From Vicugna vicugna (Eukaryota), in assembly GCA_013265495.1 (NCBI GenBank), contig MU057801.1, positions 1,171,879 through 1,235,878 of the forward strand: DNA of 64,000 bases, read 5' to 3'. The notes below the pieces were generated by a model that did not search any database, was not told where the DNA came from, and was given only the letters and a program-made list of their open reading frames with translations. This document shows, one piece after another, positions 11,740 to 59,900 of the stretch. A program made the position numbers and the translations under genes. Each line of letters begins with the position of its first letter. Positions within the stretch are counted from its first letter, which is position 1.

Positions 11740-12345
11740 TAGGTAAAATGGTACAACTACTTGGAAGACAGTTTGGAAGTTTCTTACAACATTACAACAA
11801 GTTTCTTACAGCACCTACCAGCAACCCAAATTCCCAGTATTTGCTCCAAAGAAATGAAAGTATTTACGCACACACACACACACACACACAACTTGTAAAT
11901 GGATGTTCATAGAAGCTTCATTTCAAAAAACTGGAAACAACCCAAATATCCATCAACATGTGAATGAATCAACAAATTGTGGTGCCTCTATACAGTCATA
12001 AAAAGACTGATTCACACAAGGTGGAAGAATTTCAAAAACATAATACTGAGTAAAAGGAGTCAAACAACAGACTATAAATGATAGCTTTCATTTATAGGAA
12101 ACTCTAGGAAAAAGACGAATCTAACAAAATGCAGGTCAACAGTTGCTGCTCGAGGCTGGGGGTGAGGAGGGAGTTGTTACTGCATGCACAGGAGCACAGG
12201 GAATTGTGGGGGGAGGGGAGGGCAATGCACTTGTTCTGTATGTTGGTTGTAGTGGTGGTTTCCAAAGTGCGTATCTTTGTCAACATTCATTGAACTATAC
12301 ACTTAAAATGTATACATTTAAATATATATAAATTATATCTCAGTA
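11740..12345 (+). mobile_element. Old L1 3' region containing an (AC)n repeat
   Basis: ctggaaacaacccaaatatccatcaac…aattgtggtgc. Confidence 0.7.
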
Positions 12346-19779: not shown

Positions 19780-20900
19780 AGAGAAACCGGGAAGTAGACG
19801 TAATGAGGCCGTGCAGATGCTTAGATTCTACCGTGACTCGAAGCGGGTGAGAGAGGAGACCAGACCGGCCAAGCCTCCCCGGGGCCTGCGGAGCGCGGGC
19901 GGGAACTCCCCCTGAGGGGCGGCCGGGGCGGGGGAAGCTCCGGAGTGGGCTCCGTGCAGCCCGCGCCCCCCCGATGCGGCCCCAGGTCCCGAGCCCCGCC
20001 CCGAGCCCCGCCCCGGGCCCCGCCCCACCGACGTCCCGCCCCAGACGACCCCGCCCAGTGCAGCCCGACCCTCCTTCCCGGCTTCCCTGGCGGCGCCGCC
20101 GTGACCTCACTTCCTGTCGCCGGCGCGCACGTGGGAGGAAGTGCCGGTGCCCGCGGCCCCGCTGCTGCCGGTCTCTCTGGTTACGTCCGTCCGCGGGCCG
20201 CGCCGCCGTCTCTAGCTGCGCCGCCGCCATGGGAGTCCCGGCTTTCTTCCGCTGGCTCAGCCGCAAGTACCCGTCCATCATTGTCAACTGCGTGGAAGAG
20301 AAGGTGAGGAGGCGCGGGGCGGCCGCGCCAGAGCCCGGAGCCCCGGCGCGTCCAGGCCGCGGTGCCCGGGGTCCGTCGCCCGCCCCTGGGCGCCGTGCGG
20401 GGGCCCGCGCTCCTCTCCGCCCCCAGCAGCCGAGCCCGACGCGCGCTGGGGCGCGGGCGCTCGGACTCGGGCCTGGGCGGGGGTCCTGGGCGGGGCGAGG
20501 GCCGAGCGGGCCGGAGCTCGCGGGAGGGCTGCTCCCCGCCGCCCGCCGGCTCCCGGGCCGGAAGGCCCCGCCCACGGCTTTGTTCCCTCCCGCTCGGCGC
20601 TGTCGGGGTTTCTGGAGAGGCTCCCGGGCTGTCGGTCGGCGTGCGGCTGGGCGGCTGAGTTAGCCGGTGAGGGTGGCGGGGGTGCCGACGCCAGCCTCTA
20701 CCGACCTGGGGAAGTAGTCCCGGCGGCGAGCTCTGCGCTGTTCCCTGGCCCGGCCCGAATGGTTTTCTGCTAGCGGGAGAGGCAGGTCCTGCGGAGAAGG
20801 CGGCGCCTTAGAAACGTCCGGGACAGGACAGCGGTCCCCCAGGTGCCCCTTGTCTAGGGGCCGGCCTGCTGGACCGCATGCCTTTGACAGTTTCAGAATT
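19780..20900 (+). promoter_or_regulatory. CpG-island promoter of XRN2
   Basis: Very high GC and CpG density around exon 1. Repeated CCCCGCCC (Sp1-type) boxes at ~19994-20030, ETS-like CACTTCCT and GGAAGT, and an E-box CACGTG at ~20108-20143. No obvious TATA box. Confidence 0.9.
20229..20303 (+). CDS. XRN2: XRN2 exon 1 (coding part)
   Basis: [25 protein letters not shown], donor AAG|gtgagg. Confidence 0.97.
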
Positions 20901-23900
20901 CCTGGCGCACCTGAACGGGACACTTGCTGCTGTAGTTTGTCAGTGTTACGTAGACTTCTGGCCGGTTTTGACTTTTGTGTTTATCGTTTATGTGGTTCCG
21001 TCCGAATTCGATTTTGTACTCTGGATTAGACTATCCGGATTGGGAAGGTTCAGGGCCACATTATGTTCCTCCCTGCTTCGGTTTTGAAGGACGTGCTCGT
21101 CCGACACGGGGAACTTTTCCCTTAGGCTGGGTGAGATCTTGATTTTGCTTAGAATCCGTCCGAGGAAGAACTGAAAGCCTTGTTCTTATTACCTTTCCAG
21201 TACTCTCCGTGTTTTTCTCAAAGAGAAACTGTTAAACTGAATGCTCATTTCCTTTGCTTTTAAAACTTTTATCGAACGTTATTAACTTTACTTGCGTCTT
21301 AACAAATTTCTACTCTCCAGTGATAACCACTTTTAACTATTTTTGGTTTTATTGAATTTTAGCAAGAATAGAAGAGGATGTAGTCCCATACACAGCCCTC
21401 CCCCCGTCTCCTAAGCACTAGCTTCATTTCTCTATTGGTAAACTTTGTAACTTGTGTGTTCTGTTATTTTTTTTTAATTCCATCTCCTATACAAAGTATC
21501 GTTTGACCCTTTGCTTTCAAAGGTTAGGTGTTAGCTTTTCTACCTCTGTTGCCCTTCCTGTCAGCTGACCTTCTGCCTTGCTGGCCGCCAAAACGAAGTT
21601 GTCAGGCCTCTGGCTATACAGGTTTGTTTTAAAGGCTGAAAAATCAGATGGCATTGGTGATTATTGTCACTGTGTAGATTCACAGTATGTGCTGTGATTC
21701 CGTTTCTTCCCTTGTGCCACTCTTGTCTTTTGTTGTGTGGACTGTTTTCCACTACAGCTGGTTCCCCATCCAGACTCTCTTTTATCAGGTGTTGTATCAA
21801 GTCCTCTTTTTAACTGCTTGAGGTCTTTATTCCTGTTGCTGCCATGCTTGGTTATGTAGGCTTGCTGGAAAGCTGCTCCCGGAGATTTTTAAAAATCCCT
21901 TCAATTAGAGGTACAATTTTCTAATCATTATTTCTCTTGGTTTAAAACCTTCCTTGTTTTTTATTTTTACGTGAATTCTTAAGGAGTGTTGTGTGAGTTT
22001 TCTAAGTCCATACTACCCTTGTACACATGAATGATCATGAGCTAGGCAGAGCTTGGGTTTAAAAATACTTCTCCTCAAAACTTTAAAAACGTTGTTCTTT
22101 TGACTTCTGTCGTCCAGAATTGTTGATGAGACGTTGAATGCTAACTTGATTCGTTTGTTTAGGTAGCATTTATATAGTGTTTAACATGTGCTGGGTGTTT
22201 TGCAGATTAATTTATTAAATCCTCATAACAGCCACATAACTATTTCTCCTCTTCCTCCTCCTCCTTCTTACAGATGAGAACACTGAAGCACAGAGGGCTT
22301 GAGTGTGTCTCAAGGTCACGTGGCTAATGTGTCAGAGCCAGTGTCAGAGCCAGGAAGCCCCTGGTCTTCATGTCTGTGTTCTTTTGCTTTCATTCTTTTG
22401 TAGTTGTTGTATTTTTCTTTCTGAAATTTGTGAAGCTCTTTATCCTTGATGGCATAAGATTAGGTACTTAGGTAGAGATTTTTTTTTTTTCAATTAATTT
22501 TGATCAGTACTTGACTGACTCTGAGTCTGGAGGCTTGTGGGGAATGCTCTTAATTTTTTTCTTGTTTCTCCTTTTCTCTGTGCCCTCTGTGAACTCTGAA
22601 TACCGGTCCTCCTAGATTGATTTATTTTTCTTTTTCCTCTCTTCTCTCCTGCCTTTCCCTCGAGATATAATTGACCTACAACAAACTGCACATATTTAAC
22701 AATGTAGAATTTAATACATTCTGACTCATGTGTCCGTGAACCTATCACCACAGCCAAGATAATGGCCGTCACCTCTGGAACATTCCTTCTGCCCCCTGTT
22801 GTTGCTCCCCACAAGCCCTCCCTGCTGCCCATCTTTGTTGAGACTGATTTGTTTCTGACTCTCCGTAAGTTTTCATTTTCTACTGTTTTGTATAAGTGGA
22901 ATTATACAATATGTATTCTTTTTTTTAACCTTTTAACTTTATTCAGAATAATTATTTTGAAAGTGTTCCATGTTGTTACTTGTATCAGTAGCTTTTTGGG
23001 GGTTTTTTTTGGAATAGTATTTTGTGTTGTGCATTTATCACGTTTTGTTTATTCATTCACCTGATTGATGTTTGATGATTTGGGCTTTTTCCAGTTTTTG
23101 GCCATTAAAAAAACTTCTGTGAACGCTGGTATACAACTCTTCGTGTAGGCACGTGCTTTTATTTCTTTAGAGAATACACCTAGGAGTGAATTGGTTGCAT
23201 TGTATGGTAGGTGTCTGATTAAAAAAAACTTGCTAGACTGTTTTCCAAAGTGTTTGTGCTGTTTTATTGCCACCAGCAGTGTGTGAGAGGTCTGATTGCT
23301 CCGCTTCCTTGTCCACACTTAGAATGGTTAGTCTTTTTAATTTTGGCTGCCCACTGTGGTTCTTTCTTGCATTTCCCTAATGACCAAGGGTGGTGAGCAT
23401 CTCTTTGGGTGCTTATTTACCTTCCATATATATTCTTGAGTGAGGTGTCTATTCCGATTTTTTGCTCATTTTTAAGTTGGGTTGTTTGTATAATTGAATT
23501 GTAGAGGTTTTTTTTACATATTAACATGTATTTTTTGCAAATATTTTCTCTTAATCTGTGGCTTGCCTTTTTATTTAGCAGTGCAAAGAAGAGCAAAGTT
23601 TTTAATTTTAGTAGAGTCTGACTTTTATATCCCTGCTTTTTGTGGTATATTTCAGAAATCTTTGCCAAAGCCAAGGTCACCAAGATTTTGTCTTGTGTTT
23701 TCTTAGAGCTGTTTTATACTTTACTTCATCCTGTGCTTTTTTTTAAAAAATTTTTTAAAATGGTGAATCATACTGATTTTTAAATGTTAACTGCTCTTTG
23801 CATTTCTTTGAATTAAATCTCACCTGGTCATGGTGTATTATTTTTATATACTCTTGGAGTCAATTTGCCAAAATTTCCTTGAGAATTTTTACATTTTTGT

Positions 23901-26900
23901 TCAAAAAGGATATTTATCTGTAGTGTTCTTGTAATGTTTTGGTCCAGTTTGTTTTTTTTTTTAGACTTAAAGTTTTTTAATTTTTATTAATCATTAGTTG
24001 TTTAACTACTGAGAATTTTTATCCTTTCTTTTTGGGGGGCGATAATCCGTTGTTTGTTTGTTTGTTTAATGGAGGTACTGGGGATTGAACCCAGGCCCTC
24101 GTGGATGCTAAGCACACGCTCTCCCACTGAGCTACACCCTCCCCTCCTTGTCCAGTTTTGGTATCAGAGTAATCTTGGCCTCATACTGAGTTGCGAGGTG
24201 TATGCCTTCAGTTTTCTGAGAGTCTCTGTGCAATTCCTATTACGTCTTCCTTAAATATTTGATAGGATTCACCAGTGAAGCCATCTGGACCTGACATTTT
24301 TGGGGAAGTTTTAGCTACAGATTCAGGTTTTTGGATAACCATTGAGCTATTCAGATTATCTATTTATTTTTGAATGAGCTTTTGTAGCTTGTGTCTTTCA
24401 CATATTATGCTCATTTCATCTAAGTTGCCCATTTTCTTGACAGTTCATAGTATTCCTTATTAATTTTTTAATATTAGTAGAAAATGTAGTGATGCTGCTT
24501 CTCTCATTCCTGACGCTAATTTTGTCCTTTCTCTTTTGTTCCATTATCAGTCTGGCTAAACTGATCTCAGAGAACTAGCTTTTGGTTTCATTGATTTTTC
24601 TCCATTATTTTTCTGCTTTCTGTTTCATCAGTTTCTGCTCTTGTATTTATGACTAATTTCTTATGCTCATTTCGAGTTTAGCTGTGTTTCTTGTCCTTCT
24701 TTCTTGCCTCTGCTGAGTTCGTTGCATAGATGCTGCTTCTCCGAGTGCCGTACGCTGCCTGCCAGCCCTGCGCCAGGAGCGTGCCCCACACACTGACACG
24801 TTGCCTTCATTTTCATTCAGTGAACAATACCTGCTCGTGTCCCCTTTGACCCATTGGTTATTCAGAAAAGTGTTACTCAAGTTTCAAATATTTGGAGGAT
24901 TTTTCAAGCATTTTTTTTCTGTTACTGATTTTTAGTTTAGAGAACCTTCTTTCCATAATTTGAATTATTTTAAAGAACCTACTTTGCAGCATGTTCGCTA
25001 CGTGCAGTGGCCCTCCCCTGGTGCAGGCACAGAAGGGGCTCCAGTGCCTTTGACCCAGTGCCAGGTCCGCCCGGCTTCAGAGATTGTCGAGCAGTGCGGG
25101 CCCCGAGTCTCACCGTCTTCACGCTTCCCTGGTGACTCAGCCAGGAGCTGCTGTTGAGGCATCCTCCTCCCCCATGACCAAGGGGAAGGAGCTGACTTGT
25201 CTGATGGCCTGTTCCCAGAAACATCTGGAAGATACAGCCAGAGCCCTCCACCATCAGGATGAGCAGCTTGACAGCATAGCCAGAGGCCTGGACAGGATGG
25301 AATCTGCCCTAGATGTGGCTGACAGGTTGTCGCTTTGTAAGCGGTCCAAACTGGAAAAGACAAGATAAAATTGTTGCTATATGCAGATGACATGATACTG
25401 TATATAGAGAACCCTAAAAGGTCCACACAAAAACTACTAGACCTAATCAAAGAATTCAGCAAGGTAGCAAGATGCAAGATTAATGTACAAAATCAGTTGC
25501 ATTTCTTTACGCTAACGATGAATCAACAGGAAAAGAAAGTAAAGAAACAATCTCTTTTAAAACAGCACCCAAAGTAATAAAATACCTAAGAATAAATCTA
25601 ACCAAGGAGGTGAAAGACTTATACATGGAGAACTACAAAACATTGATCAAGGAAATTAAAGAAGACTTAAAAGAATGGAAAGATATCCCATGCTCTTGGA
25701 TTGGAAGAATCAATATTGTCAAAATGGTTGTACTGCCCAAGGCAATCTTCAGATTTAATGCAATCCCTGTCAGATTACCCAGGATATATTTCACAGAACT
25801 AGAACAAATCATAATAAAGTTTATATGAAATTACAAAAGACCTAGAACTGCCAAAGCATTAGTGTAGAAAAAGAATGAGGCTGGAGGAATAACCCTCCCA
25901 GACTTCAGACAATACTACAGAGCTACAGTGATCAAGACAGCATGGTATTGGTACAAAAGCAGACATATGGATCAATAGAACAGAATAGAGAGCCCAGAAA
26001 TGAACCCACAAACTTTTCGTCAATTAATCTTTGACAAAGGAGGCAAGAACGTACAGTGGAATAAAGACTCTCTTCAGCAAATGGTGTTGGGAAAACTGGA
26101 CGGCAGCATGTAAATCATTGAAGCCAGAACACTCCCTTACACCACACACAAAAATAAACTCAAAATGGATCAAAGACTTAAACATAAGACAAGATACAAT
26201 AAACCTCCTAGAAGAAAACATAGGCAAAACATTCTCTCACGTACATCTCAGCAGTGTTCTCCTAGGGCAGTCTACCCAAGCAATAGAAATAAAAGCAAAA
26301 ATAAACAAATGGGGCCTAGTTAAACTTACAAGCTTTTGCACAGCAAAGGAAACCATAAGCAATACTTTGATTTCTTGAATTTTATCTTCCTGCCCTTTGT
26401 GAATGAAAAATGTTGCCTGCCATATCAGCAAACAAAGGGTGCTGCATCAGCCACTGCCACAGCCCCCAGTGGTGAGCCCAAGGGAACTTGGGATGGAGAC
26501 AACCATGGTGCCCACTGCCAAGCCCTCAGCGACAGAAGCCACCGCTAGTGGTGCACCCTGAGGGGACTCGGGATGGGAAAGATCAGGATACTAGCCCTTG
26601 GGAGGGAAGGTGCTCATCAAAGGAGTGATTTCGGTGAGCCCAGACTCTTGCATCTTCCCATATGTAGAAAAGCACCAAGTTCATTAACTTGAGATAATCT
26701 GGTTTTCCTTAATTAACAGTGGTCTTTTGATGTTCTGGCCACCTGGTCTTTGTTGCAAAAACCCCTATTTACCCTGGCTCCCCCCCTTCCCTCTTCAGAG
26801 CATTCCCTCAGAGCTATCTGAGAAGCTGCCTCCTGCACCTGAAGTCCTCAGAACGTCCACCTAATAAAATATAATTCTCAAAAAACAAAGAAAAAACCTG

Positions 26901-29900
26901 CTTTGTGTAATTTGAATTATTTGAAAGCTGAACTTACTTGTTTTATGGCCCAGAGTATGGTCTTGATAAATGTTTCATTTTAATTTGGGAAAGACACAAG
27001 CTCTGCTGTTGGGTAGTGTGTTCTACAAACGTCGTCCTGCTGGGTGTTGGGTACGGGAGACGTGATTGTCTGTCTCTTGTTCTGCCAGTAATTGATAGGG
27101 GTATGGAAATCTATAAAAATTTTTTAGATTTGTCTGTTTCTTCTTACAGCTCTGTTGCTTTTTGCACCTTGCATTTTGAAACTTACTAGGTGCACAGACG
27201 CTTAGGAGTGTTAAGTCTTGTGCTGAATATGCTCCTTTATCATTGTAAGATGGGTAATATTCTTTGAAATCTGTTTTGTCCGATATTAATACAAGCAGAT
27301 CTTTTGACTAATGTTATCATGGTCTACTTCCATCCTTTTACTTTTGGCCTACTTGAGTCTTTATATACGAAGTGTTCTTAGTAGACAGCATATAGCTGGT
27401 TCTTGTTTTTATATAAAGTTTGATGATTGCTGCCCCTCTTTTTAATTGTGGCCAAATATGCATAATGTGACACTTGCCATTTATATATAGAATTCTGTGG
27501 CATTAAGTACATTTGCAATATTGTGAAGCCATTACTGTTTGTCATTCCTAGAACTTTGTCATCATCCCAAACAGAATCTGTCTACTCATCTAAATTCTCT
27601 GTTCCCTTCCCCTTACTTCATGTCTTATGAATTTGCCTGTTTTGGACTAATATAAGCAGAATCATACTATTTGTCATTTTGTATCTGGCTTCTTTCACTT
27701 TGTCACTTAGCATAATGTTTTCAAGATTCATCCATGTTTAGCATGGATCAGGGCTTTTTTTTATTAAGGATCTTTGAAGCTGTTTGAAGTATTTATATGC
27801 AAATATGTGTATAATGTATAGGAATTTAAATGTTTAAACTCTTCATATGTTGAAGTTTTATAAGTATACGTATAGCTCATTAATTTTCACGAACTGAAGA
27901 TGTGTGACTTGCGCCCAGATCATGAAGCAGAGTATTATCGCAGTGTTAGTACCCTGGGACTCAGGGCTTTGCTCCCTCCTACACGGTGGCCACCCTACAG
28001 TCATGTCTCCTGATAGCAAAGAGTGGTTTTGGTAATGCTTGTATTATTGAAATTGTCTGTTCCTTTCATTTTTATCATTTATTATAAGTCGTGTGTATTT
28101 TCATGCTGTTATTAGGTATATATATGTTTCTAAGTGTTGTATCTTCTTGATGGATTGACCTTTTTATCATTATCAAATGCCATTACTTCTAGTAATTTTT
28201 TAGGTCAGTTTTGTCTGATATGAGTGCAGCCACTCCACATTTCTTGTGGTTGTTATTCTTCCCCATCCATTTACTTTCACTCTGTATGTGTGAATCTCAG
28301 ATGTGTCTCCTGTAGACAGCATATAACTGGGTCAATTTTAATCCAGTGTGATGGTTGTCTTTTGATTGGATTATTTAATCAGCTCACATTTAACATTATC
28401 AATATAGTTAGATTTGTGTTTTCTATATGTATTTTTAGTGTAGCATTTAGATTTCATTAGTGATCTTTTTAAAAAATCTGTTTTAAGTGGTCTAGGGTTT
28501 ACTGCATAGATCTTAACAGCTTTAGATTTATACTAGTTTAAACCCAGTAATATATGGAACCTTTACTGCTGTATGACTTGATTCCTAGTTTCCTTTTTAT
28601 TTGGTCTGTCGTTACGTGTATTATATGCATTAATGCTACAAGCCCAACAGTGCATTGCGAGAATTACTCCTTTACCATCTGCAGTCACGTCCACAGTGCG
28701 TTGCAGTTTGCGTCTCCCCGCCGTTTGGGCTGTTACCAGGAGACGTATCCCGTTTGTACTACATTGTGTGCTGTGAGCTGTAGTGGGTTACACAGTATCA
28801 TTTTATACAGTTGCATTTTTTTTGCAATAGTAGTTAAGAAAAGAAAGGATATATATCTTTACTTATTTTTGTCCCATACGTCTCTCAGGCTTTGTTCACT
28901 TTTCTTGATCTTTTTTCCTCTCTGCTCCCCAGCCTGCATAATCTCTATTAATCTATCTGAGTTTGAGTTTAAGAATTCTCAGGAGGACGGTATAGCACAC
29001 GCTTAGCATACATGAGGTCCTGGGTTCAATCCCCAGTACCTTCTCTAAAAATGAGTAGATAAACCTAACTACCTCCCCCTAAAATAAATAAACAAACAAA
29101 TAAATAAATGTGCAATTTTAAAAAAGAAGAAGAAAACACGAAGAAAATTCTTTCTTTTGCCAGTTCCAGTCCACGCTTGAGCCCCTCTGATGAATTTTTT
29201 TTTAGTTGCTGTGCTTCTCTAACCCCAGAGGCTCCATTTATTTGTTCTTTATACTTCTTGCCTTTGTTAATATTCTCTACTTGATACAAATTGTCATCCT
29301 ATCTTCCTTTAGTTCTTTAACCATATGTCTCTCGTTCAGTGAACATGTTTATAATGGCAGCTTTAAGCTCCCTTCTGCTAAAGCTGACATCTGGACGCTC
29401 ACAGGTGGTTCCTTGTGCCTCCGCCTTCTGTTTCTCTGCTGTGTTTTGCCTGGTAGTTTTGTTGTGCTGGTGGTTTTTTGCTGCAAAGAGGACGCTTTAG
29501 GCAATATATTTTAGTGACTCTGGGTGCTGGTCCCTGCAGACTCTTCCCAGGTGTCTTCCTGGTTTTTGTGGTCATGTACTGGCTGGGCTACGTCAGTCAG
29601 GTGTGTCCTGGCTCCGGCGCTGCCCCCCGGGGGCACGGTGTGGCGCGCCCACAGCCCCCCTGGGACGGCCGTGGCACCGGTGGGGCGTGCTCCCACTCAG
29701 CCACTGGGCTGCCGGGCGCAGTCTCCATTCAGTGCTGTCCGTGGCACTGCTGCTTTCAGCAGTGCCCACGGCACGCGTTCCTCTGTGGCCTGACCCTGCG
29801 AACGTGTGGCTCCTTCCAGGGACTCGTTTCTGGGATTCCCGTTCCAACCCCGGGAGGGCTCCTCCCGCCATATGACGCCGTGGTGCATCTGCTTCTCTGT

Positions 29901-35900: not shown

Positions 35901-38900
35901 CTGAGATGCTTGGTCCAGATTTGAGCTCTCGGGATCGCCTGTCTGTCACAGAAGGACTGTTTAGACTTACTACTTAGCTTCTATGTTTTAGTGTATTATT
36001 TTTGTAAGACCAGCCGATTCAAAACAGTGCACGGATCTCGTGCACGTGTTTGGAACGGCACACGTGAGTGTGAAATACGCGTCCCCAGGCGCCCCGCGCG
36101 AAGATGAACCAGCAGCGCTCTCGGAGGTTCCGCGCGTCCAAAGAGGGAACGGAGGCGGCGGCGGAGAAGCAGCGCGTCCGGGAGGAAATACTGGCAAGAG
36201 GTAGAGTGTGCGTCTCCGAGTCGGACTTCTTACAAGATGTGTGCGGAAGGGGTAGGGGGCAGCTTCCCCCCACAGATAGCTAAGATTTTAATTTAATCAG
36301 GATCCCAGGATACCCAAGGAAAATTTATATCCACTGTTGAGGAAAAGTAGTTAACAGAATCCTTTATTCTGTTAATAAGCTTGTTCATTTCCAAACGCTG
36401 TAGTGATAGGGAAACTGGGGAATAGAGAGAAGGAACCCCTGCGGGGAGCGCAGACTGTCAGGGTCGTTGAAGGCGAGAGCAGCTCTCAGCTGACTTCCCT
36501 GTGTCTGCAAAGTGCAAGTACGTGAGTGCTTCTGACTCCCTTTTCCTCTGGGTCTGTTAAAGAGCTACAGTTCCGTGAACATTGTCCTCAGATCAGTGTG
36601 GGTGGCTTGCTCAGTGCTGCTCCTTAGAACCCAGGACTTGCCAAGGAGGCCTGGGGCGAGGGGACCGTGTTTCCGGGCTCTCCCCTGGCCCTGCACATCT
36701 CAGTGCAGGCTGGGGCAGCAGGTAGGGAGGGCCCCGCGTCCCTTCAGTTTCGGGAGGGGGCTGTGGAGTGGAACGTGGTCATCTTTGCAGTTCCTCAGAG
36801 CCTGGGAATTCCTGAGGGTACAGAGGGAGGAGCTGTCCTCAGAGGAGGACTGCCAGGCCCCCGACGCCCGCGGCACTGCTGCTCACCAGAGGCCTGTGTG
36901 CCAGGCGGGGCCCGGCCAGCGGGGTGCGTGCGTGGTGTTCTGTTCAGGAGGCAAAATGGTAGACCAGGGAAGAAAGCCACAGTTTATTGGTTCAGGATGT
37001 TGCGTTCAGCAGGTGGAAAAAGAGCGCCCAAGCCTGTCGTGACAGTCCCTTTGGTGTCACTTCAGCTTTGCTGGGGGTGCGCTGGTCTCTGCGCTTCAGC
37101 TGCAGCTTGTTAATACTCTCAAACCTGTGTGTATTTGTAACAGAATTGAAAGCTATCTTTCTTAAGATGTTAAGAGATACGTTTGTGTCTTGAGAAAAAG
37201 CTCATCAGTGATAGAGGAAGAAGTAGGATTTTAAATTCCCTCTAGCTGGTGGTGTCATTTCTTAGCATATAAAGCCGTGATAAACTCTGCATATTAATTT
37301 TGTTTTCCTAAGACCCCTTTATCTTAAGAACTGTTAGCAGTATTAGAACCCCTAGTGTGTGTGTGTGTGTGTGCGCATGCGTGCGTGCGCGTGCTGCTTC
37401 AGGGGCATTAGGAAGAACATAATTTTTGTTTTTATAACACAGTATGTATCTTTTGTGTACCATATGTTGTTTGGCAGTCATGTTAAATCTTACTTTAAAT
37501 TTGAGGGAAGGAATCTTCCTTTCTTCAAAAAAGGGCAACGTTGTTCCTCAGGTGACAGCACTTCTCTTTCTTTTTTATTTGAACTTTTTGTTTTGTTGTT
37601 CTGGCCTAATACTGACTAACTTACTTCACTTTTTATGAGGAAAACAGAGCATTGTTCCTTTTTCTCTAGGTGGCTTTCTTCCTCCAGAAGAAATAAAAGA
37701 GAGGTTTGACAGCAACTGTATTACCCCAGTAAGTGGTCTCATACTTTGCTGGCTATTGCTAACTCTTAAACGGTAGGTTAATTTATTTCCTTCTGTCATT
37801 TTAGGGAACTGAGTTCATGGACAATCTTGCTAAATGCCTTCGCTATTACATAGCTGATCGTTTAAATAATGACCCTGGGTGGAAAAATTTGACGGTAAGT
37901 TTCGCATTTTGGTACTCCAGAAAGATGAGGGGGATGATTTGAGGCTGCACTTTGATATGTCTGGTTTTATTTGTCCTTTTCCCCCGTAAAATGCTGGTTG
38001 ACTGAGGACAGAGAAGCTTCCAGGGCTGTTAGGAATGGGGTGGGTGCCCTGCGTGGTCCAGGAGTAGGCAGCTGAGCTTTGTCTCTGTGCCAGTTACCAT
38101 CACTGTGAAGCCGTAAAGTGGGACTTGGGATTTAAAATATATGTATGTGAGATTAATTTCTGTTACCAGAAATCAGAATACAGCAAAATTAGTCATGGGG
38201 CTGCCTTTAAAGAATAGCTGTTTCCTAAGTATTTAAGTAAGATTTAAGGCAACTTTTATGTAATTTGAGGTTCATGAGCTTGTTTCCCTATTAATTGGGC
38301 ACAGCACCTTGTATTTCATGGGCGCTCTCGGGGCTTTTGTAGCTCTGCGCTGTGTACTCGAGCAGCAGCGGAAACAGTGGGAACTTGGGAGAAACTGATC
38401 TATTTTTCTAACGGCTCAGTTTGACCTAAAGATTTCATGTTTTTAATATTCCATGTAGTAAATTAACCAGTGAAATAGTTTTGATGTCTAATACATAAAC
38501 ACCTTACTAAGAAAAATTTCCAGTTAGTAACACTCTATTAATAGAATTATCCCAATTTAAGATACTCAGTTCTATTGATTTTTGTGCTAGAAAATTTGAG
38601 GCGGCTGAAAATTTTTTTTGCTTTTTGTAGGTTATTTTATCTGATGCTAGTGTCCCTGGTGAAGGGGAACATAAAATCATGGATTACATTAGAAGACAAA
38701 GAGGTAAAGCACGCTTGTAAATGTTTGATTATATGTTCACTTGAAAAAACAAGCCGTTGTGTAGAAAATACTTGGTGATATGGGATACCGCCTGTGGGGT
38801 GAAGTGCACTGATGTAACTGCGTGTCTTCCCTCCTCAGCCCAGCCCAACCACGACCCAAACACTCACCACTGCCTGTGTGGAGCTGACGGTAAGCTGCTT

Positions 38901-41900
38901 CTCTGGGGTCTGAGTCTCTTGGATTGAAACATAGCAAGTCGATGGGTGGGTGTATAGTGATGGATTATTTGTGGTTGCCTGGAAATTCTAAAAATTTTCT
39001 GTTTGAGAGGGAACTAGAATGGAGTTGTTTAATCTGTGATTAATGTTCACTTATCTTTAATTTTTTTTTTTAACATTTTTCACCCTCTTCGTATGATTGC
39101 ATATGTCTTTTAAGTGGAAAATTTCCAGATGCTTGGCTCTCGAGTGGCAGTCTGTGTCCTAGGCCCGCGTATCTGGAGGCTGCCCTGTTTCCTGCTAGGG
39201 AGCCTGCAGGCTTTGCGGCTGTGCTGCCTCTGCTCTTGTGCCCGTCTGGGCTTGTCTGCGCTGGTGCCTCGCGTTGCGGTGATGTCTTGCTTTGTCGCAG
39301 TCGGGGCCTTCTGAACGTTCCCACTGTCACGCGTGGTGGTGTTGTTGACAGCTGACCTCATTATGCTCGGCCTTGCTACACATGAGCCCAACTTTACCAT
39401 CATCAGAGAAGAGTTCAAACCGAACAAGCCCAAACCGTGCGGGCTCTGTAATCAGCTGGGGCACGAGGTGAAGGACTGTGAAGGTTTGCCAAGAGAAAAG
39501 AAGGGGAAGGTAAGAACTTTGAGATGCCAGTAGCCTCATTTAAATTTTTTTAAATTTTATTTTTTACTGTGATAAAATAAACGTAACAGAAAACATACCA
39601 TTTCAACCATGTGTAAGTATACAGGTCAGTGGCGTTAGGTATATTCAGGTGCCTCATTTTAAGAATGGCTGGAGCGGAGACCGTGGTTGATTGGGTTTTT
39701 GCCTGCTTGCCCTGTCACCCTGACAGAGGTGGTCTTCCTCAGCTCTTAGAGTAACACGTTCAGAGCCACGGCGCACTCGCTCCTGCTCTCCACGGTCTCT
39801 CACCCAGCTTGTCTCCACGTGAGGCTGAGGTCTCGTGGCTAATAAAGCCCACTGCACACGATTTGTTGGTAGAAGTATTTATCTCCAGTGGTTATTCTTA
39901 AAAGGAACTATGAATCAAATATTTTAAACTTCTTGGTGCTTCTAAGTTACTCCTAGTTGCTATATATTTGGGGTTCACTTGATCACCATCCATTCTCTTA
40001 AAGGGGTTTCTGTTTTAAGAATATGGTGCCTCATTAAAAGGCATGTTGAGTGAGAAAAGCAGCTGATAAGTATACACGTTGACAGAGAACGTGAGGTGTT
40101 CATCAGAATGTCGGTACTGGGTGGGTGAGGGTCGAGTTCACAACACAGCCCTCTAGATTTGGCCTCTGAGCTAAGGTTTTTTGTTTTTAAAGGGTTGTAA
40201 AAACAAAATAAAACATGAAAAAATATGCAACAGAGACCGTAAATGTCCCTCCAGGCCAAAATATTTAGTGTCTGGCCCTTTACAAAAAAACATTTCCGAC
40301 CCCTCGCCTGGGTGTGTTTCAGATTATGAGTGATTTTTATTTTTCAAATGGTTTGGTGAGTTCTTTTTTTAGTTAATACTTGTAACGTTAAGCGGGTCTG
40401 TCTTTAGAAAAGCCGCAGTATTTGCTCGGTTGGCGAGAATGCAGGGCTCAGAGTAGATGGGCTGAGTCTTTCCCCCCTCCCTGCAGCACGATGAGCTTGC
40501 AGACAGTCTTCCTTGTGCAGAGGGCGAGTTCATCTTCCTCCGGCTCAGTGTGCTCCGCGAGGTACGTAGCCGTGGCCCGAGCCTGGGGCTCGAAGGTGGG
40601 GTGCCCCTTGGCAGCCGTAACGCGGCGCCCCTTGTCGGTTGTAGTACTTGGAGAGAGAGCTCACCATGGCCAGCCTGCCGTTCACGTTCGACGTGGAGAG
40701 GAGCATCGACGACTGGGTCTTCATGTGCTTCTTTGTGGGGAACGACTTCCTTCCTCACCTGCCGTCCCTGGAGATCAGGTGTGTGCGCGCGCGCGGAGGT
40801 CCCCCGCCGCCCTCGCAGCCTTCCCGCCTTCGCAGTGCACGCTGGTCCTAATGCGGAATGTTTGTTTCCTGGCGGCAGGGAAGGTGCAATTGACCGTTTG
40901 GTTAACATTTACAAAACTGTGGTACACAAAACTGGGGTAAGTTCACTCTTGAATAATTTCAAAACAGAAGTATTTGCTTGTAAAAGGAGATCATTTTACA
41001 TGTATTTTATCACTTACAGGGTTACCTTACAGAAAGTGGTTATGTCAATCTGCAGAGAGTACAGATGATCATGTTAGCAGTTGGTGAAGTTGAGGATAGC
41101 ATTTTTAAAAAGAGAAAGGATGATGAGGTAAAGTGTTTCTCTTGCAGTAGCTCAATTGCTCCTGTCTCTAATAGGCTATGATGACCTGTGATTGTCCTTT
41201 TAACCTCTCTGAGCGCGCTGTTAAATCATTACAGTGTATCAAACACCAAGGTGATCACGAGTGGCCAGTGCTTTGACTGTGGTATAAAGGTTGTGCTGCT
41301 TGCTGTGTGGAGCTGTGTATTGCACACTATGAGGGTTGCATTGTAATTTTTTCTCTTCTTACTCTTAACTAAGATGTAAATCCAAACATCTGTCTAATCA
41401 GTGGGACATGAAATGAGAATTCCACAGCTAGAAGAGTGCTGGACTTGAACTAGTGGCTGCCGAGTGCTGTAGGCAGTGTTTCTGCTCTGGATCTAGGAGC
41501 TCTGTACTCTGGTAGCAGAGTGGATGGGGTCTGGGTTGGATTGCATCCGCCAAAGCGGAGACTTACAGCTGTAAGAAATGTAGGCTTAAAAAAGGAAATA
41601 AAATCACAAAGCACTTGGGAATTGGCTTCATATGATCGGGTGAGGGCTCAGGTGAGGAGCCCAGGTCTCCGGCTTGGGCAGTGGGGAGGTTGTGGTGCCG
41701 TTCACTGAAATAGCAGGTCCCCCTCATCTACCCAGGAGAGCAGGATGGGATGGGGATGAGAAGAGATACTGAGTTTGAGGGGCCACTGGACACCTGAGAG
41801 GAGGGCAGTCCGTGGACCAGTTGGATGGGTGCATGTAGAGCGCTTGGCAGCAGACTCTGAAAGGAAATGTGAGAACCACTAGCAGAGGGGAGACACCTCA

Positions 41901-53900: not shown

Positions 53901-56900
53901 CTGTCCCCTCCTGGCCTGTCGGCCCAGGGAGTGTCAGCTCAGCTGCTTTTCATTGTGTTTGATGACAGCAGCTCCAGAGTTGTAAAAAATGCCACCAGCC
54001 ACATTTTAAGGACGAAAATCTTCACCAGATTGTGTTTGTTAATATAAAGTTTGGTATTAGCTACTGATAATTAAAGACATTTTGCAGTATTTTTTAAATC
54101 AAGGGACCATTGACATGAAATTTTAAAGTTCAGATTTAATCTAATAACTTCTAGGACTTGTGGAAAAATTAACAGAAGTCATGTGTTTTATAAATGGAAT
54201 GTTATAGGCTGAATAGTCGAGTCCTTCTTTCTTTGTCTCTGTGTCACTGACATCATTGTGGGTTTTGCTGTCTGGTGGCTAGGGCTGTGCGTCCTGGAAG
54301 TGGTACTACCCGTTCCACTACGCGCCGTTTGCTTCAGACTTTGAAGGTATTGCGGATATGCCCTCTGATTTTGAGAAGGGGACTAAACCGGTAAGCCGAA
54401 TTATTTAGGGCCATAAAATTCATAGAATTCTGGCTTAGATAAAAATTGTGTGTCAGATGTTGAAGTTTTTTCCTTTTTGCAGTTTAAACCACTGGAACAA
54501 CTGATGGGGGTTTTTCCAGCTGCAAGTGGTAACTTTCTGCCTCCGTCATGGCGGAAGCTCATGAGTGACCCTGTGAGTCTTTCAGTGCTTTGAGGGTGTT
54601 GGGACCTGGGTTTCTGTCATACATTTTACTAGCAATAGTCACAATTGCTTTTGCATCTCGTCTTTAAGAGCGTGAAGTGCAGAAACAAATGAAAGTATTT
54701 GAGTTCTTCTGTATATTTTTCACTGCTTTTTTTTTCCTGCTTCCCTTGGCCATCAGTACCCTAACCAGTAAATAAAATTGATTTGTGTTTGGGGAAAATT
54801 CTTAGAACAGGTGTTGTGTTCTCAGCTTCCCTGTAAGCCATTATTTTTGTTTGTTCCAGCCTTCGTGGTGGCTGCCAGAGCTCAGAAACCTGGCCCGCCT
54901 GGAATCCCCTCCAGGCTGGCTTTGTGCCCTGGGAGGCGCGAGACTCAGCTGGGAGGTGGGGTGGTCACAGTCAGTAAGCTCTTCACTGCCTGTCTTGGGT
55001 GCACAGCTGTCCACTCTGGAATTCTATAGTAATGCCTCTTTTTCATCTTTTACAAATTACAGTTAATAAAATTACTTATTTTGTTTCACTAAACTTGCAA
55101 TTTAAAGAATACCATTTTAAAAAGGAATGAAAGCTCGTTTTCTTATCAAGCCTGATAACATGATCAGAAGTTACATTAACACCTTTACAAGAGAAATGTG
55201 TGGCTTCGCGTTTTGAGTCTACGTTTCTCCCCGGTGCAGGATTCTAGCATAATCGACTTCTACCCTGAAGACTTTGCCATTGACTTGAATGGGAAGAAGT
55301 ATGCATGGCAAGGTAAGGTTTAGACATGAGTCCTTTTTGTTGAAACAGTTTTCTCTTTTTGCTAGAACTCTGAGCAAACACGATTTATGGGATAAAACGT
55401 TTCCTGTAAAAGATAAATATTTTAGAATTACATGTGAAAATTTGATATTTTTCCATCCCACCTGATTAGCAGTGATTGCTAGTAATTTTAATAGTAGCAT
55501 TCTGATAAACAGTAAACTGGGTTGAAATAGGTTAATCATTATTTTTTGGATCTCCTTGTAGTTAATGGGACTTGGGACATGCTCCTTTCAGTCACTGACC
55601 CCTTGTGAGGCTGCTGAGGGACGTAGAGGTGTGAGCATGCCCTTGTAGAGGTTTGCTCATACTCCAGGGACACTTTTGAAAAATGTGTTAGAAATTTAGT
55701 TTAAATACTTGACATTAATCATAATTTAAAGTTTATTTCTTATTTGTATATTATTTTCTCATTTCCTCTGTTCACAGCTTTTGTAAGAATGACAATATAT
55801 GAAATTTGTACTAAATTTAAGATGATACTTACCTGCTCAAAAATGCATGATGACTGATTGTAAAGCACAGTGAAGTCTCGCACAGGCAGCCAGCCAGCTG
55901 TCGTGCACCAGACCCCATTCACCAAATCATGTTTGCCTCTTCTTCCACCATACGTTTTTCTAGAGTAGTAAGCATGTTTGGTAAAATTACGTTTTCACTC
56001 TTTTTCCTTGATTATTCCCCGTGGTGCAGAAGACCTGTGAAATGCCTCAAAGAGAGTTGTGGAGCAAAGGGGAATAGAGAGTAACTTACAGATCGAAGCG
56101 ATCACTTGATGAGGTTTTAGGGTGGACTCTTGGTGTCTGTAGTAGCAGGAGTTCCCTGTTACTTCATAGCGGAGTGCTGACGGGCCTGTGTCTTGTCGAT
56201 TGTAGGTGCTGTGCTCTGTGGTCGTGTTTTCCAGGTAAATGGATTGAGCTCTTTGGTTGTTTTAATACGTTTGTGGAGTAATCAGAGAGGGAGAGGAGGC
56301 GTAGAAGGACGGGTAGTGAAGTGAAGATGTAAGTGCATTTGTCTGTTTGTTAAAGTGTTTTGTTAAATGAGTAAATACGCAAGCGTGCAGGTGACCGCTG
56401 ACTGTCACTGTGGTAGAAACCGTCCAGAGGAGTCGTGTCTGTTTTGGAAAATGGTCTGTTCAGGTCCTTTGTCCATTTTTGAAACGGGTTTTTGTTGTTG
56501 TGTCGCAGGAGTACTTTATATGTGCTGGACACTAATCTCACCAGATACGTGACGTGCATGTATTTTCTCCCGTTCTGTGGGTCATCGTCTTCTGTTGATA
56601 GGGTCCTTGAATGCACAAAAGTTTAAAATTTTCCAAGTCCAGTTTTTGTTGGACTATTTTGTTGTTGCCTTTGCTTTTGGTGTCACATCTAAGAAATCAC
56701 TGCCAAATCCGGTGTCATGAACTTCCTCTGTGTTCTTCTGAGAATTTTGTAGTTCTGGTGCGTGCATTTAGGGCACTGGGCCATTTTGAATTAATTTCTG
56801 TGTATGTTGTAGGGGAAGGGCCCAGCTTCATTCTTTTGCGTGTGGATGTCCATTTTCTCAGCGTCGTTCGCTGAGACGACTGCCCTTTCCCCGGTGGATG

Positions 56901-59900
56901 GTCTTGGCACCCTTACTGAGAATCAGGTGGCTGCGTGTGCGGGCTCATTTCTGGGCTGTCTGTCTGTTGCTCGGTATATCTGTCTTGACGCCAGTACCAT
57001 GCTGCCTTCGTTTCTGGTAAGCTTTGAAATCCGGAGGCGTGAGTCTTTCAGTTGCATTTTTCTTTTTCAAGATTGTTTTGGCTTAAGATTCCAGGTGAAT
57101 TTTAGGCTGGGTTTAAACTCAGATCTTTAATATTTTTATATTTTATATAAACATTTTCATCTATTAGGTTCTAACAAGAACACACCGTTCTTGAGGTAAA
57201 ATGCAGTCCTGTTGGGAGAGGCAGTCTTTTCTTCACACATGTCTTTAAAACCCATGCAGAGTAATGATAGTCGTTAGGTTCTTGTCTGAGTACATCTTAA
57301 AATGGTAGAAGGGAAACATAGCTGGGTACTTTTCCAACGTTTATTGAACATGTGTTCTTACCAACATTGTATGTAATGGTAGCAATGTTGTGTTTTCATA
57401 TTTGCGTAGTACGGAGAGAAGGACTGTATAGCAGAGACATTCCGAATGCTGTGTATTTTACATATGAATGGAAAATTTAAGTAATCTGATTGGAGTCCCA
57501 CAGTGGCAGAGCTAAGAGCTGAATCCGGAGAGTCTGACCCCTGTGTCTACCTGCACGGTACTGCCGTCTGGGCCGCCTCTGGGTTGTGGAGAGGACCGAG
57601 TGAGTGAGAGCATGTAACGGGGTGGGTGCTCGGGAGGGAGTAGCTGCTGTTGTCCTGGGTGCTGTCGGCTCGTCCTCCAGCGCTGCCAGGGCCGCCGGGG
57701 TCACGGCTGGTGCGGGCGCTCGGCTGTCCTGGCCGGGGTGGCGTGTGTGTTGCCAGGAGGACCAGGTGGTTGTCATTGGCCTGCAGGTTGCTTCCTACGT
57801 GGAGTTAGCTTCTGGCGCTGGCATTGTAGGAAGGCCTTTCTGAGTATTTTAGGTCCTAAATCTGGTAGGTAGAAGACAAAGCTACATAATGTTGCTGTTT
57901 TTTCATGATACAACTTTTTTAGGTGTGTGACTAATTAAACTTGAACAGCTTTCTAGGTTTTTCCATCTGAGTGCTTACTGGTGATTGAAATAGCCTGACT
58001 CAGGATAGACGTTAACAACCTTGAAATCATGTTTTAGGCGCTATAAGATTCCCACTAGAACTTAGTTTCTTTTTAACGTGAGAAAATACATATATATTCT
58101 CCTCACTAGGTAGTACAATGGCACACGTTTCCTAACTTTGAAAATATGGTAGCTAAATAATTAACGACTTTGGAAACCTTTCATTTCTCATCACTTTAAA
58201 GGGAGTCATCACAAACACAGCAGTTTTGAGTGGCAGTAGTTTCAAAATTATTTAGCTCTATTTGGCATTTCTCTTTGCTGTTTACCTTAAAGTTTTTATT
58301 TGGCCAAAATGCTATTTATACTATAACAGCAGAACTTAACGCGCTTCGTAACTTCCTACGTTTCCTGGTAGGAGATAACTGTGTTGCTGATGCACTTCTT
58401 TGGTGGTCGTGCACGTGGGTCCAGGTAAAACACTGACCTTAATTCCAGCACGCGCCAGACGACAGCTTTCAGCCTGAAGATGAGCATCTCTCCTACCCTC
58501 CCCAAAGTTATTTAAGCAAACAGGTCTCCACTGTTTGTGTGTAAAAGCTGGTCTTCAGGTTTCAACATGGAAACAGTACTATGCGGTTTTAGAGCTGGAA
58601 TAGACATTTCGAATAATCTAGTTGAACAACACTTACGAGTATTCCTGTTGAATGATCTCAGCAGGAAGACACCAAGGTCCTAGAAGGATGAATGGTCAGA
58701 CCTAAGCCCTTGGGAGGTTGGCCGCTTGCCCGAGGGCGCCCAGTAAGTGAGGCTGAGAAAGAGACTGGTGTCTCGGCCTCTTGTTCATTTAATTTAGAAT
58801 TTTTATTATCACAGAGTTAAGCTCAAACATGGTTTCCCATATGAGCCATTTTAAGGATGGAAATTTTGGAATTTTTTCTTTTACATTTGAATTTTGGCTG
58901 AAAATTAGAGCTCAGTTCCAAAGTGTTTATATTAGCAGGAACATCCTATGAGAACTGTTAGCTTGGACCAGCTGGAAATTAGGTGACTAATAGCAGCGCG
59001 GTTGGTGTGCATTGGTCTCCCCAGGTGTCGCGCTGCTGCCATTCGTGGACGAGCGGAGACTGCGGGCCGCCCTGGAGGAGGTGTACCCGGACCTCACTCC
59101 CGAAGAGTGTAAGGCTGCACTCACCTGGTCGCCGCTGAGTCTGCGTCCTACACGCGTCACGTTTCCTTCTAAAATCTGACTTTCCATTTGTCAAATTTTT
59201 TATAAAAGGGGGCATAAATCATTGGTTTTAACTTCTTTGTAACAAAAGCTGAATTTGTTTTTTAAAATTTATTATCCATAAATTGAATCGTCACTAAATG
59301 AAAATCTTAAACTGACAGGTGTTTGACTTCCTCCATCTCCCTTTTTCCCTTCACCTGCCCCCAACCCCGGCTCAGTACCAGTAACTTTGCTTGAAGATTG
59401 TGACACGAGAGTGCTTGCTCATGTTATTTTTCACAAAAGTGGGATTTTGTCGTTAATTCTGATACTTAAAATGTTGGGAAATTGCAGGGTGGGCTCTTGG
59501 AAAATTTGTTGAATACCAGTGTAATAGACCTATAGAAATAATTCCTCTGTCAACCATCCTTAGGATAGTTTTTGTGCTCAGGTGACACGATGTGTGTCTT
59601 GCAGTGAGATGCTGAGCTCCGCAGAGGGAAGGAAGCGTGGGCCTCCCCGTGCAGCCCTGTGCTCAGCCGGCTTTTAGTGATCCTTTCCTGACTGTCACTG
59701 ATCTGTGAAGCCTTTTTGCTAGTTTTTTTTCCTACAGAGCCGTGTCACATATTTAGGCCTCTTGCTGTTAATTTATTTTTCATAAACTTTATAATTAAGT
59801 TTACAAAATTTGGATGCCTTTTACTGCTTTTGCAAGTACAGCTGTCTGATGCCCCTCTCTCCCTCCCCCAGCCAGGAGAAACAGCCTGGGCGGCGACGTG

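What the first reader, a model, noticed from the sequence alone, without database searches (positions are those of the whole stretch)
24973..26905. Three-part chimeric retrocopy (SNAP47 segment + L1 ORF2 + LTR poly(A) site) in XRN2 intron 1
Seen: one insertion interrupts an old antisense L1. It is bounded by a near-identical 14-mer (aagaacctactttg 24973-24986; aaaaacctgctttg 26892-26905) and ends AATAAA (26863), 11 nt, then an A-rich tail. Inside are a GC-rich leader, a SNARE-like coding segment, an internal L1 ORF2 piece with no L1 ends, and an LTR cut off at its poly(A) site. Established: a TSD plus poly(A) tail is the signature of L1-mediated retroposition. Inference: the template was either a non-canonical SNAP47 transcript that ran or spliced into intronic L1/LTR sequence and was polyadenylated early, or a template-switch chimera. 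In the first case it is a fossil of an unannotated truncated SNAP47 isoform.
Basis: partly seen in the sequence, partly recalled or inferred. Interest (0 to 1): 0.75.

Follow-up and report, generated by a model that had tools for sequence, protein, structure and literature searches.

The report
Fossil of a mis-spliced SNAP47 RNA
A dead DNA copy of one oddly spliced SNAP47 messenger RNA, which seems to have been diverted into a backwards, partly inverted L1 element and ended at a retroviral-type promoter repeat, sits in the first intron of XRN2 in a camelid genome; it is a tidy example of a known kind of genomic fossil.

Summary
The insertion is real: TSD 13/15 (5 of 1,500 null pairs as good), L1-type nick site, AATAAA plus A-tail, sense in XRN2 intron 1, splitting an old antisense L1. 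It is best read not as three parts glued at insertion but as the copy of one spliced RNA. The 'leader' (24987-25140) is SNAP47 exon 1 and ends exactly at the exon end seen in horse and rhino isoforms. It joins the last 185 nt of exon 2 (P106-R167), which stops at the exon-2 donor. The first 'spacer' (25326-25338) is antisense L1 encoding T-K-R-Q-P, the residues that directly follow the end of the sense L1 piece (ORF2 ~687-1028): the geometry of a twin-primed, 5'-inverted L1 lying antisense in the source locus. So the RNA most likely entered that L1 by a cryptic acceptor, read the inverted arm, left through its flank and was polyadenylated in a solo LTR. The parent locus DNA could not be examined, so cis versus trans joining is open, and the LTR identity is recalled only. 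The copy lacks three camel/alpaca-shared SNAP47 changes, so it probably predates their split. Known class; modest interest.

The parts
24972..24986 (+). 5' target-site duplication, preceded by TT (L1 endonuclease-type TT|AAAG)
   Evidence: 13/15 to 26891-26905; null 5 of 1,500
24943..24975 (+). 33-nt unit duplicated at the target site (pre-existing tandem repeat or part of a longer duplication made at insertion)
   Evidence: 28/33 to 26895-26927; 45-nt 80% repeat; period 33
24987..25140 (+). SNAP47 exon 1 (5' UTR exon), from near its 5' end to its donor
   Evidence: back-translated N-terminal extensions of horse, rhino and muntjac SNAP47 match 25042-25140, 24997-25140 and 24985-25110; scores 36.6, 27.9, 46.3 with 0, 2, 0 of 120 GC-rich nulls as high; horse and rhino matches end at the last exon-1 base = 25140
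25141..25325 (+). last 185 nt of SNAP47 exon 2 (P106 to the AG of R167); about 360 nt of exon 2 including the start codon are skipped
   Evidence: exon end inferred from 26 of 121 entries that stop right after this residue and from isoform X4 joining at R|LL
25326..25338 (-). 13 nt of antisense L1 ORF2 (T-K-R-Q-P codons, aa ~1029-1033): tail of the non-inverted arm of a source L1, entered at a cryptic acceptor
   Evidence: only 12/12 fit among 3,108 positions of one ORF2 (next best 7); in 85 L1 proteins, 62,844 positions, all 15 hits at this one place; shuffles 1 of 400 near it
25339..26362 (+). inverted 5' arm of that L1 (ORF2 aa ~687-1028), read in sense; 2 frameshifts, at least 3 stops
   Evidence: ends 0-1 nt from where the 13-nt antisense piece begins in L1 coordinates
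26363..26376 (-). putative TSD of the source L1 (A-rich in L1 orientation, TCTT|GA nick variant)
   Evidence: inference from sequence; only one copy is present here, so untested
26377..26397 (+). unassigned source-locus DNA between L1 and LTR; pyrimidine-rich, not a polypurine tract
   Evidence: sequence
26398..26879 (+). LTR-like segment (U3 and R), starting TG, with ~80-nt internal repeats, a decayed TATA-like box near 26766 and AATAAA 26863-26868; ends at the cleavage site
   Evidence: anatomy; ERV1-class identity recalled, no reference found
26880..26896 (+). decayed poly(A) tail merging into the 3' TSD
26891..26905 (+). 3' target-site duplication
25174..25368 (+). longest SNAP47-frame ORF (64 aa, M117 to a stop in the L1)
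   Evidence: not in the protein collection
23079..24971 (-). old antisense L1 ORF2, left of the insertion
   Evidence: tblastn segments 23079-24598
26906..27295 (-). same old L1 continuing (endonuclease domain) right of the insertion
   Evidence: weak: E 1.4, aa 75-119; colinear by extrapolation
20229..20303 (+). XRN2 coding exon 1, phase-0 donor (host gene)

Best explanation
A processed copy, made in trans by L1 ORF2p, of one aberrant polyadenylated RNA from the ancestral camelid SNAP47 gene. Steps: (1) inferred: the source locus held, downstream of exon 2, a twin-primed L1 lying antisense to SNAP47 and, about 35 nt beyond it, a sense solo LTR; (2) shown by junction positions: exon 1 was joined at its normal end to an internal site of exon 2 (just after the pyrimidine-rich L-L-L-S-Q codons), and exon 2 was left at its normal donor; (3) inferred: that donor was spliced to a cryptic acceptor in the antisense L1 13 nt before the inversion point, so the 1.55-kb last exon reads the inverted arm in sense, the L1's TSD, 21 nt of flank and the LTR; (4) shown in part: cleavage 11 nt after the LTR's AATAAA; (5) shown: near-full-length insertion by TPRT into an old L1 in XRN2 intron 1, probably before the camel/llama split. 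It is most likely a dead fossil.
For: TSD, nick site, tail. Leader = exon 1 ending at 25140 in horse and rhino alignments, starting at the TSD edge in the muntjac alignment. SNAP47 homology stops at the exon-2 end; the 26 single-exon entries imply an intron starting G-stop, whereas the copy continues GTTG, so it is not intron read-through. The 13-nt antisense piece fits one place only, abutting the end of the sense arm; this is the twin-priming pattern described in 10.1101/2024.08.27.596794 (passages read; medians 4.5 kb for truncation and 5.15 kb for the junction, against about 4.05 and 5.07 kb here using a recalled ORF2 start). Two old L1 copies in the window show a pyrimidine tract just 5' of the homologous place. 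No polypurine tract precedes the LTR, and U3 is included, as expected for read-through into a solo LTR. Camel SNAP47 isoform X4 begins with an antisense-L1-derived exon (score 42.7, next 9.4, of 3,081 positions), so antisense L1 does get spliced into camel SNAP47. L1/LTR gene traps and their release in testis: PMC10901741 (passages).
Against: No DNA of the parent locus was seen, so steps 1 and 3 are inferred. The acceptor AG needs a CCT proline codon in the source L1; both old in-window copies have GG there. The CAG needed inside exon 2 is inferred from Q105 (110 of 141 entries), codon unseen. Both junctions share 2-3 nt (AG/CAG) that could also serve a template jump. Nine AATAAA/ATTAAA hexamers in the L1 arm were passed. 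None of 121 SNAP47 entries has this tail. The antisense-L1 exon of isoform X4 maps to ORF2 aa ~627-641, outside this L1, so it is another copy. In PMC13174262, 15 of 17 exon-L1 chimeras had no intronic source. LTR identity unverified. Dating is loose: 5 private changes in 140 nonsynonymous sites (3.6%) gives only about 7 My at the rate quoted in PMC8605555, younger than the 16.3 Mya split quoted in PMC6726744.
Confidence: 0.72

Rival explanations
1. Same RNA-level splice, but not from SNAP47's own intron: trans-splicing, long read-through, or a partial SNAP47 duplicate supplied the L1/LTR last exon.
Against: Cis is simpler; camel SNAP47 already exonises antisense L1; a polymorphic source lost later would look the same.
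Confidence: 0.13
2. Template switch during reverse transcription from an L1/LTR-containing RNA to spliced SNAP47 mRNA, using the shared AG (and a second jump or later deletion inside exon 2).
For: Short overlaps at both junctions; if camelid exon 3 starts GTTG the overlap would be 6 nt (exon 3 DNA unseen).
Against: Both junctions fall on exon ends to the base; a switch has no reason to do so, let alone twice; the switch point would also have to coincide with a pyrimidine-tract/AG site of antisense L1.
Confidence: 0.1
3. Independent nested insertions (SNAP47 retrocopy, then an L1, then an LTR) at one spot.
For: The target has an extra 33-nt duplication and 26363-26369 repeats the last 7 nt of the TSD, which could hint at more than one event.
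Against: One TSD pair bounds everything; the LTR-like part ends 11 nt after AATAAA in an A-tail; the L1 lacks its poly(A) end and 3' arm; SNAP47 stops at a donor with no tail of its own.
Confidence: 0.04

Closest known systems
Processed pseudogenes as fossils of alternative or aberrant transcripts (Shemesh et al. 2006; recalled, seen only as a reference entry, text not held)
   Same: TSD/poly(A)-bounded copy that preserves splice junctions absent from current annotation
   Different: Here three non-canonical processing events (internal acceptor, antisense-L1 acceptor, LTR poly(A)) sit in one 1.9-kb RNA, and the copy also preserves the inversion junction of a source L1
mRNA/LINE-1 chimeric insertions, 5' transductions (Law and Burns 2026, PMC13174262; abstract, section 13, passages and 6 supplements searched)
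   Same: First exons of a gene, ending at a splice donor, joined to L1 sequence and inserted by TPRT with a ~15-nt TSD
   Different: Their L1s are mostly sense, near full length and supply the poly(A) end; here the L1 is entered antisense, is a 1-kb inverted arm, cannot encode ORF2p, and the 3' end comes from an LTR
Twin-primed 5'-inverted L1 insertions (Ostertag and Kazazian 2001, recalled; described in 10.1101/2024.08.27.596794, passages)
   Same: Inverted arm abutting the forward arm at about 5.1 kb, 5' truncation, 2-3 nt of primer-like complementarity at the TSD end
   Different: Seen second-hand: only 13 nt of the forward arm survive because the rest was spliced out
Intronic L1/LTR gene traps with cryptic acceptor and poly(A) site (PMC10901741, abstract and passages)
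   Same: Acceptor plus poly(A) site in TEs gives an early-terminated chimeric RNA; more permissive in testis
   Different: SAFB targets sense L1; the acceptor here is in antisense L1 (though the exon body is sense L1)

Membership tests
L1-mediated processed retrocopy | Target-site duplication | tested here: met
   13/15, null 5 of 1,500; length ambiguous because of a 33-nt duplication
L1-mediated processed retrocopy | Endonuclease-type nick site | tested here: met
   TT|AAAG at 24970-24975
L1-mediated processed retrocopy | Poly(A) tail downstream of a signal | tested here: met
   AATAAA 26863, tail from 26880
L1-mediated processed retrocopy | Loss of parental introns | tested here: met
   exon 1 end joined directly to exon 2 sequence at 25140/25141; shown through proteins, not parent DNA
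L1-mediated processed retrocopy | Empty site in outgroups | not testable with these tools
   no genome held; no outgroup DNA obtained
Twin-primed 5'-inverted L1 (source element) | Two L1 segments in opposite orientation that abut in L1 coordinates | tested here: met
   0-1 nt gap
Twin-primed 5'-inverted L1 (source element) | Own TSD pair and poly(A) tail | not testable with these tools
   only one candidate TSD copy lies in the insert
mRNA/LINE-1 chimera (Law and Burns) | Gene exons ending at a donor, 5' of L1 | tested here: met
mRNA/LINE-1 chimera (Law and Burns) | L1 supplies the 3' end and poly(A), usually near full length and sense | tested here: not met
   ORF2 aa 687-1033 only; 3' end from LTR-like DNA
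ERV solo LTR | Homology to a described LTR family | tested here: inconclusive
   no reference reachable; resemblance to an ERV1-class LTR is recalled
ERV solo LTR | TG start, TATA then AATAAA anatomy | tested here: met
   TATA-like box is degenerate
Functional retrogene | Intact, constrained, expressed ORF | tested here: not met
   64-aa ORF, 5 private replacements in 61 codons, CpG o/e 0 in the exon-2 part; no protein record; expression not measured

The most novel reading that the evidence does not exclude
The insert is not inert but works as a camelid-specific alternative last exon of XRN2: XRN2 exon 1 (phase 0) could splice either to the strong pyrimidine acceptor inside the LTR at 26798 (rank 3 of 426 YAG sites in intron 1; the true exon-2 acceptor ranks 12), 65 nt before the AATAAA, or in frame to the fossil exon junction at 25140 (rank 67), giving a 100-aa XRN2-SNAP47 SNARE fusion. 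That would be intronic polyadenylation attenuating the termination nuclease itself, built from a TE-trapped transcript of another gene.
Probability: 0.06. Interest if true: 0.62.

Novelty: new member of a known kind. Interest (0 to 1): 0.33.

Why it matters
If right, it is an unusually legible record of how intronic TEs break a gene's transcript in the germ line: one RNA shows a cryptic internal acceptor, capture by an antisense twin-primed L1 and termination in an LTR. It makes a base-level prediction about the ancestral SNAP47 intron and offers a presence/absence marker for camelid phylogeny. It also warns that an 'internal L1 fragment with no ends' in a retrocopy may be the inverted arm of a genomic L1, not a template switch. 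It changes no mechanism.

Tried and rejected
No host genome is held. Parent DNA was sought in metagenome contigs (2 loci of 73 stretches, 37% and 52% identity, not useful). LTR or L1 DNA references: viral contigs, bacterial genomes, phages and plasmids, paper full text, earlier findings: nothing. Pfam and PDB did not recognise the SNAP47 piece, so 'covers the first SNARE motif' is recalled. No short protein like the 64-80-aa frame exists in the collection. Sequencing runs: 14 of 24 listed runs, DNA by guess, under three organism labels in five studies, hold 0.65-0.75 of the words of 24500-27400 (flanks are a third of it), consistent with the insert being widespread, but none was laid; six RNA-type runs hold 0.07-0.23, unlaid and so no evidence of expression. 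Rejected: intron-2 read-through (conserved stop after R167 absent; 13-nt piece is L1); leader as an inverted SNAP47 piece or JMJD4 (no match; sense exon-1 match instead); twin priming at this insertion (no poly(T) on the left, SNAP47 and LTR colinear). Other camelid isoform tails do not match L1 ORF2 (3 tested). The protein tree (61 columns, muntjac row left out) leaves the copy unresolved outside the four camelid rows (support 90/77). Not in print: searches listed no paper on this locus (listings only), and SNAP47, XRN2 and camel were absent from PMC13174262 text and 6 supplements; subscription papers and bioRxiv supplements were not searchable. The camelid SINE label is recalled (one search found no paper).
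Full report
Observation. The coordinates hold. 24972-24986 and 26891-26905 match at 13 of 15 bases; 5 of 1,500 random pairs of 20x20 registers in the AT-rich flanks did as well. The left edge reads TT|AAAG, an L1 endonuclease-type site. AATAAA lies at 26863-26868, followed by 11 nt and a decayed A-tail. XRN2 exon 1 (20229-20303) and exon 2 (from 33880) place the insert in intron 1 on the sense strand. The left flank is old antisense L1 ORF2; the right flank gives a weak endonuclease-domain hit (E 1.4); the two extrapolate to roughly aa 210-240 at the insertion point (one segment gave 180). One complication: a 33-nt unit is duplicated at the target (28/33), so the TSD may be 15 nt inside an older tandem repeat or part of a longer duplication.

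Host. The best SNAP47 hit is Camelus ferus, earlier unchecked notes call this genome llama/alpaca-type, and the window's SINEs (8 copies) look like the camelid tRNA-SINE (recalled). Camelid is an inference.

SNAP47 part. The coding piece matches SNAP47 (85% to camel over 84% of the query). Homology ends at R167. Of 121 SNAP47 entries holding this motif, 95 continue into exon 3, 26 (many near-identical) stop right there, and none continues like the copy; camel isoform X4 joins exon 3 at the same codon. So 25325 is the exon-2 end, and the intron begins G plus a stop codon, unlike the GTTG that follows here. The GC-rich leader is SNAP47 exon 1: back-translated N-terminal extensions of horse, rhino and muntjac entries match it (36.6, 27.9, 46.3; 0, 2 and 0 of 120 GC-rich nulls as high; a pangolin entry 26.4, 1 of 120, ending at 25129), the horse and rhino matches end at their last exon-1 base, which is 25140, and the muntjac match starts at 24985, at the TSD edge. 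Exon 1 is therefore joined straight to P106, skipping about 360 nt of exon 2 with the start codon. The skipped codons end L-L-L-S-Q in camelids (Q in 110 of 141 entries), which would give a pyrimidine tract and CAG; the codons themselves were not seen.

L1 part. The sense piece is ORF2 aa 688-1026 in human numbering, contiguous, with 2 frameshifts and 3 stops in the aligned segments. The key result is the first 'spacer'. Its reverse complement fits ORF2 codons T-K-R-Q-P: the only 12/12 fit among 3,108 positions of a reference ORF2 (next best 7); across 85 L1 proteins and 62,844 positions all 15 hits are at this place; the fit extends to 13 nt, not 14; shuffles hit within 10 residues in 1 of 400. 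These residues come directly after the point where the sense piece ends, with 0-1 nt unaccounted for. Two L1 segments in opposite orientation abutting in L1 coordinates are the mark of twin priming (10.1101/2024.08.27.596794, passages). Read from SNAP47's side, a twin-primed L1 lying antisense gives exactly this order: antisense forward arm, sense inverted arm, TSD, flank. 26363-26376 is a fair TSD candidate with a TCTT|GA nick variant (inference). The inversion cannot have formed at this insertion, since there is no poly(T) on the left and SNAP47 and the LTR are colinear. Two old L1 copies in the window show a pyrimidine tract just before the homologous place, but end in GG rather than AG, so the acceptor depends on the source subfamily's proline codon. 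Camel isoform X4 starts with an antisense-L1 exon (42.7 against next 9.4) from a different part of ORF2, showing that such exonisation occurs in this gene but not that this element is there.

LTR part. 26398-26879 starts TG, has 80-nt-spaced internal repeats, a degenerate TATA-like box about 100 nt before AATAAA, and no polypurine tract in front. I recall it as an ERV1-class LTR, but no reference was reachable. Nine earlier poly(A) hexamers in the L1 arm were passed.

Mechanism. Best reading (0.72): one aberrant SNAP47 RNA (exon 1, internal exon-2 acceptor, exon-2 donor, cryptic acceptor in an antisense inverted L1, LTR poly(A)) was copied nearly full length by L1 ORF2p. Shown: boundaries, exon ends, inversion geometry. 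Inferred: the two acceptor AGs, the cis location, the LTR identity. Rivals: trans-splicing or a duplicate source (0.13), since 15 of 17 human exon-L1 chimeras lack an intronic source (PMC13174262); template switching (0.10); nested insertions (0.04). The parent locus could not be read, so the order of L1 and LTR within SNAP47 remains open.

Age and function. The copy lacks three replacements shared by Camelus and Vicugna (positions 112, 117, 138) and two Vicugna-only ones, and has five private single-base replacements, 3.6% of 140 nonsynonymous sites. That points to an origin before the tribes split (16.3 Mya as quoted in PMC6726744, passages), though the rate quoted in PMC8605555 (passages) would give only about 7 My, and the tree is unresolved. 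CpGs are gone from the exon-2 piece and partly from exon 1. The longest SNAP47-frame ORF is 64 aa and is in no collection searched. It is most likely dead. A possible effect on XRN2 (strong acceptor at 26798 just before the poly(A) signal; in-frame site at 25140) is not excluded but has no support.

Comparison and verdict. It is a processed retrocopy by every testable criterion and a member of the 'fossil transcript' class. It resembles the mRNA/L1 chimeras of Law and Burns but fails their L1-supplies-the-3'-end feature. Earlier notes list similar fossils in this genome, so the class is common. No paper on this locus appeared (listings) or in PMC13174262 and its supplements. Papers seen: PMC13174262 (abstract, section 13, passages, supplement search); PMC10901741, PMC8605555, PMC6726744, PMC5470649, PMC12350158 and 10.1101/2024.08.27.596794 (passages); Shemesh 2006 and Ostertag 2001 (recalled). 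New member of a known kind; interest 0.33.

Noticed in passing
P0029 (camel SNAP47 isoform X4, residues 1-14): The annotated alternative first exon is antisense L1 ORF2 sequence (aa ~627-641) spliced to exon 3.
   Followed up: partly
P0034 vs P0039 (alpaca): Alpaca has an annotated SNAP47-like copy with a different C-terminus on a contig of the same length as SNAP47, suggesting a partial segmental duplicate.
   Followed up: no
window 24932-24988 and 26895-26939: 33-nt tandem duplication at the target site, about as diverged (15%) as the TSD, so possibly made by the same event.
   Followed up: partly
window 26776-26798: Strong pyrimidine tract plus CAG inside the LTR, sense to XRN2, 65 nt before AATAAA; rank 3 of 426 in intron 1.
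   Followed up: partly
window 24985-25010: The copy starts at what looks like a CpG-decayed GCGCATGCGC (NRF1-type, recalled) promoter motif, suggesting it reaches close to the cap site.
   Followed up: no
SNAP47 residue 117: The Met that would start the internal-acceptor isoform is kept in the copy and most outgroups but lost in living camelids.
   Followed up: no
window 36110-39400 (XRN2 exons): Several XRN2 residues differ from the recalled human sequence (for example in the exons at 36110, 38658, 39372), and introns are GC- and CpG-rich.
   Followed up: no
window 56437-57011, 60316-60576, 11920-12063: Further old L1 ORF2 fragments; eight copies of one tRNA-like SINE across the window.
   Followed up: no
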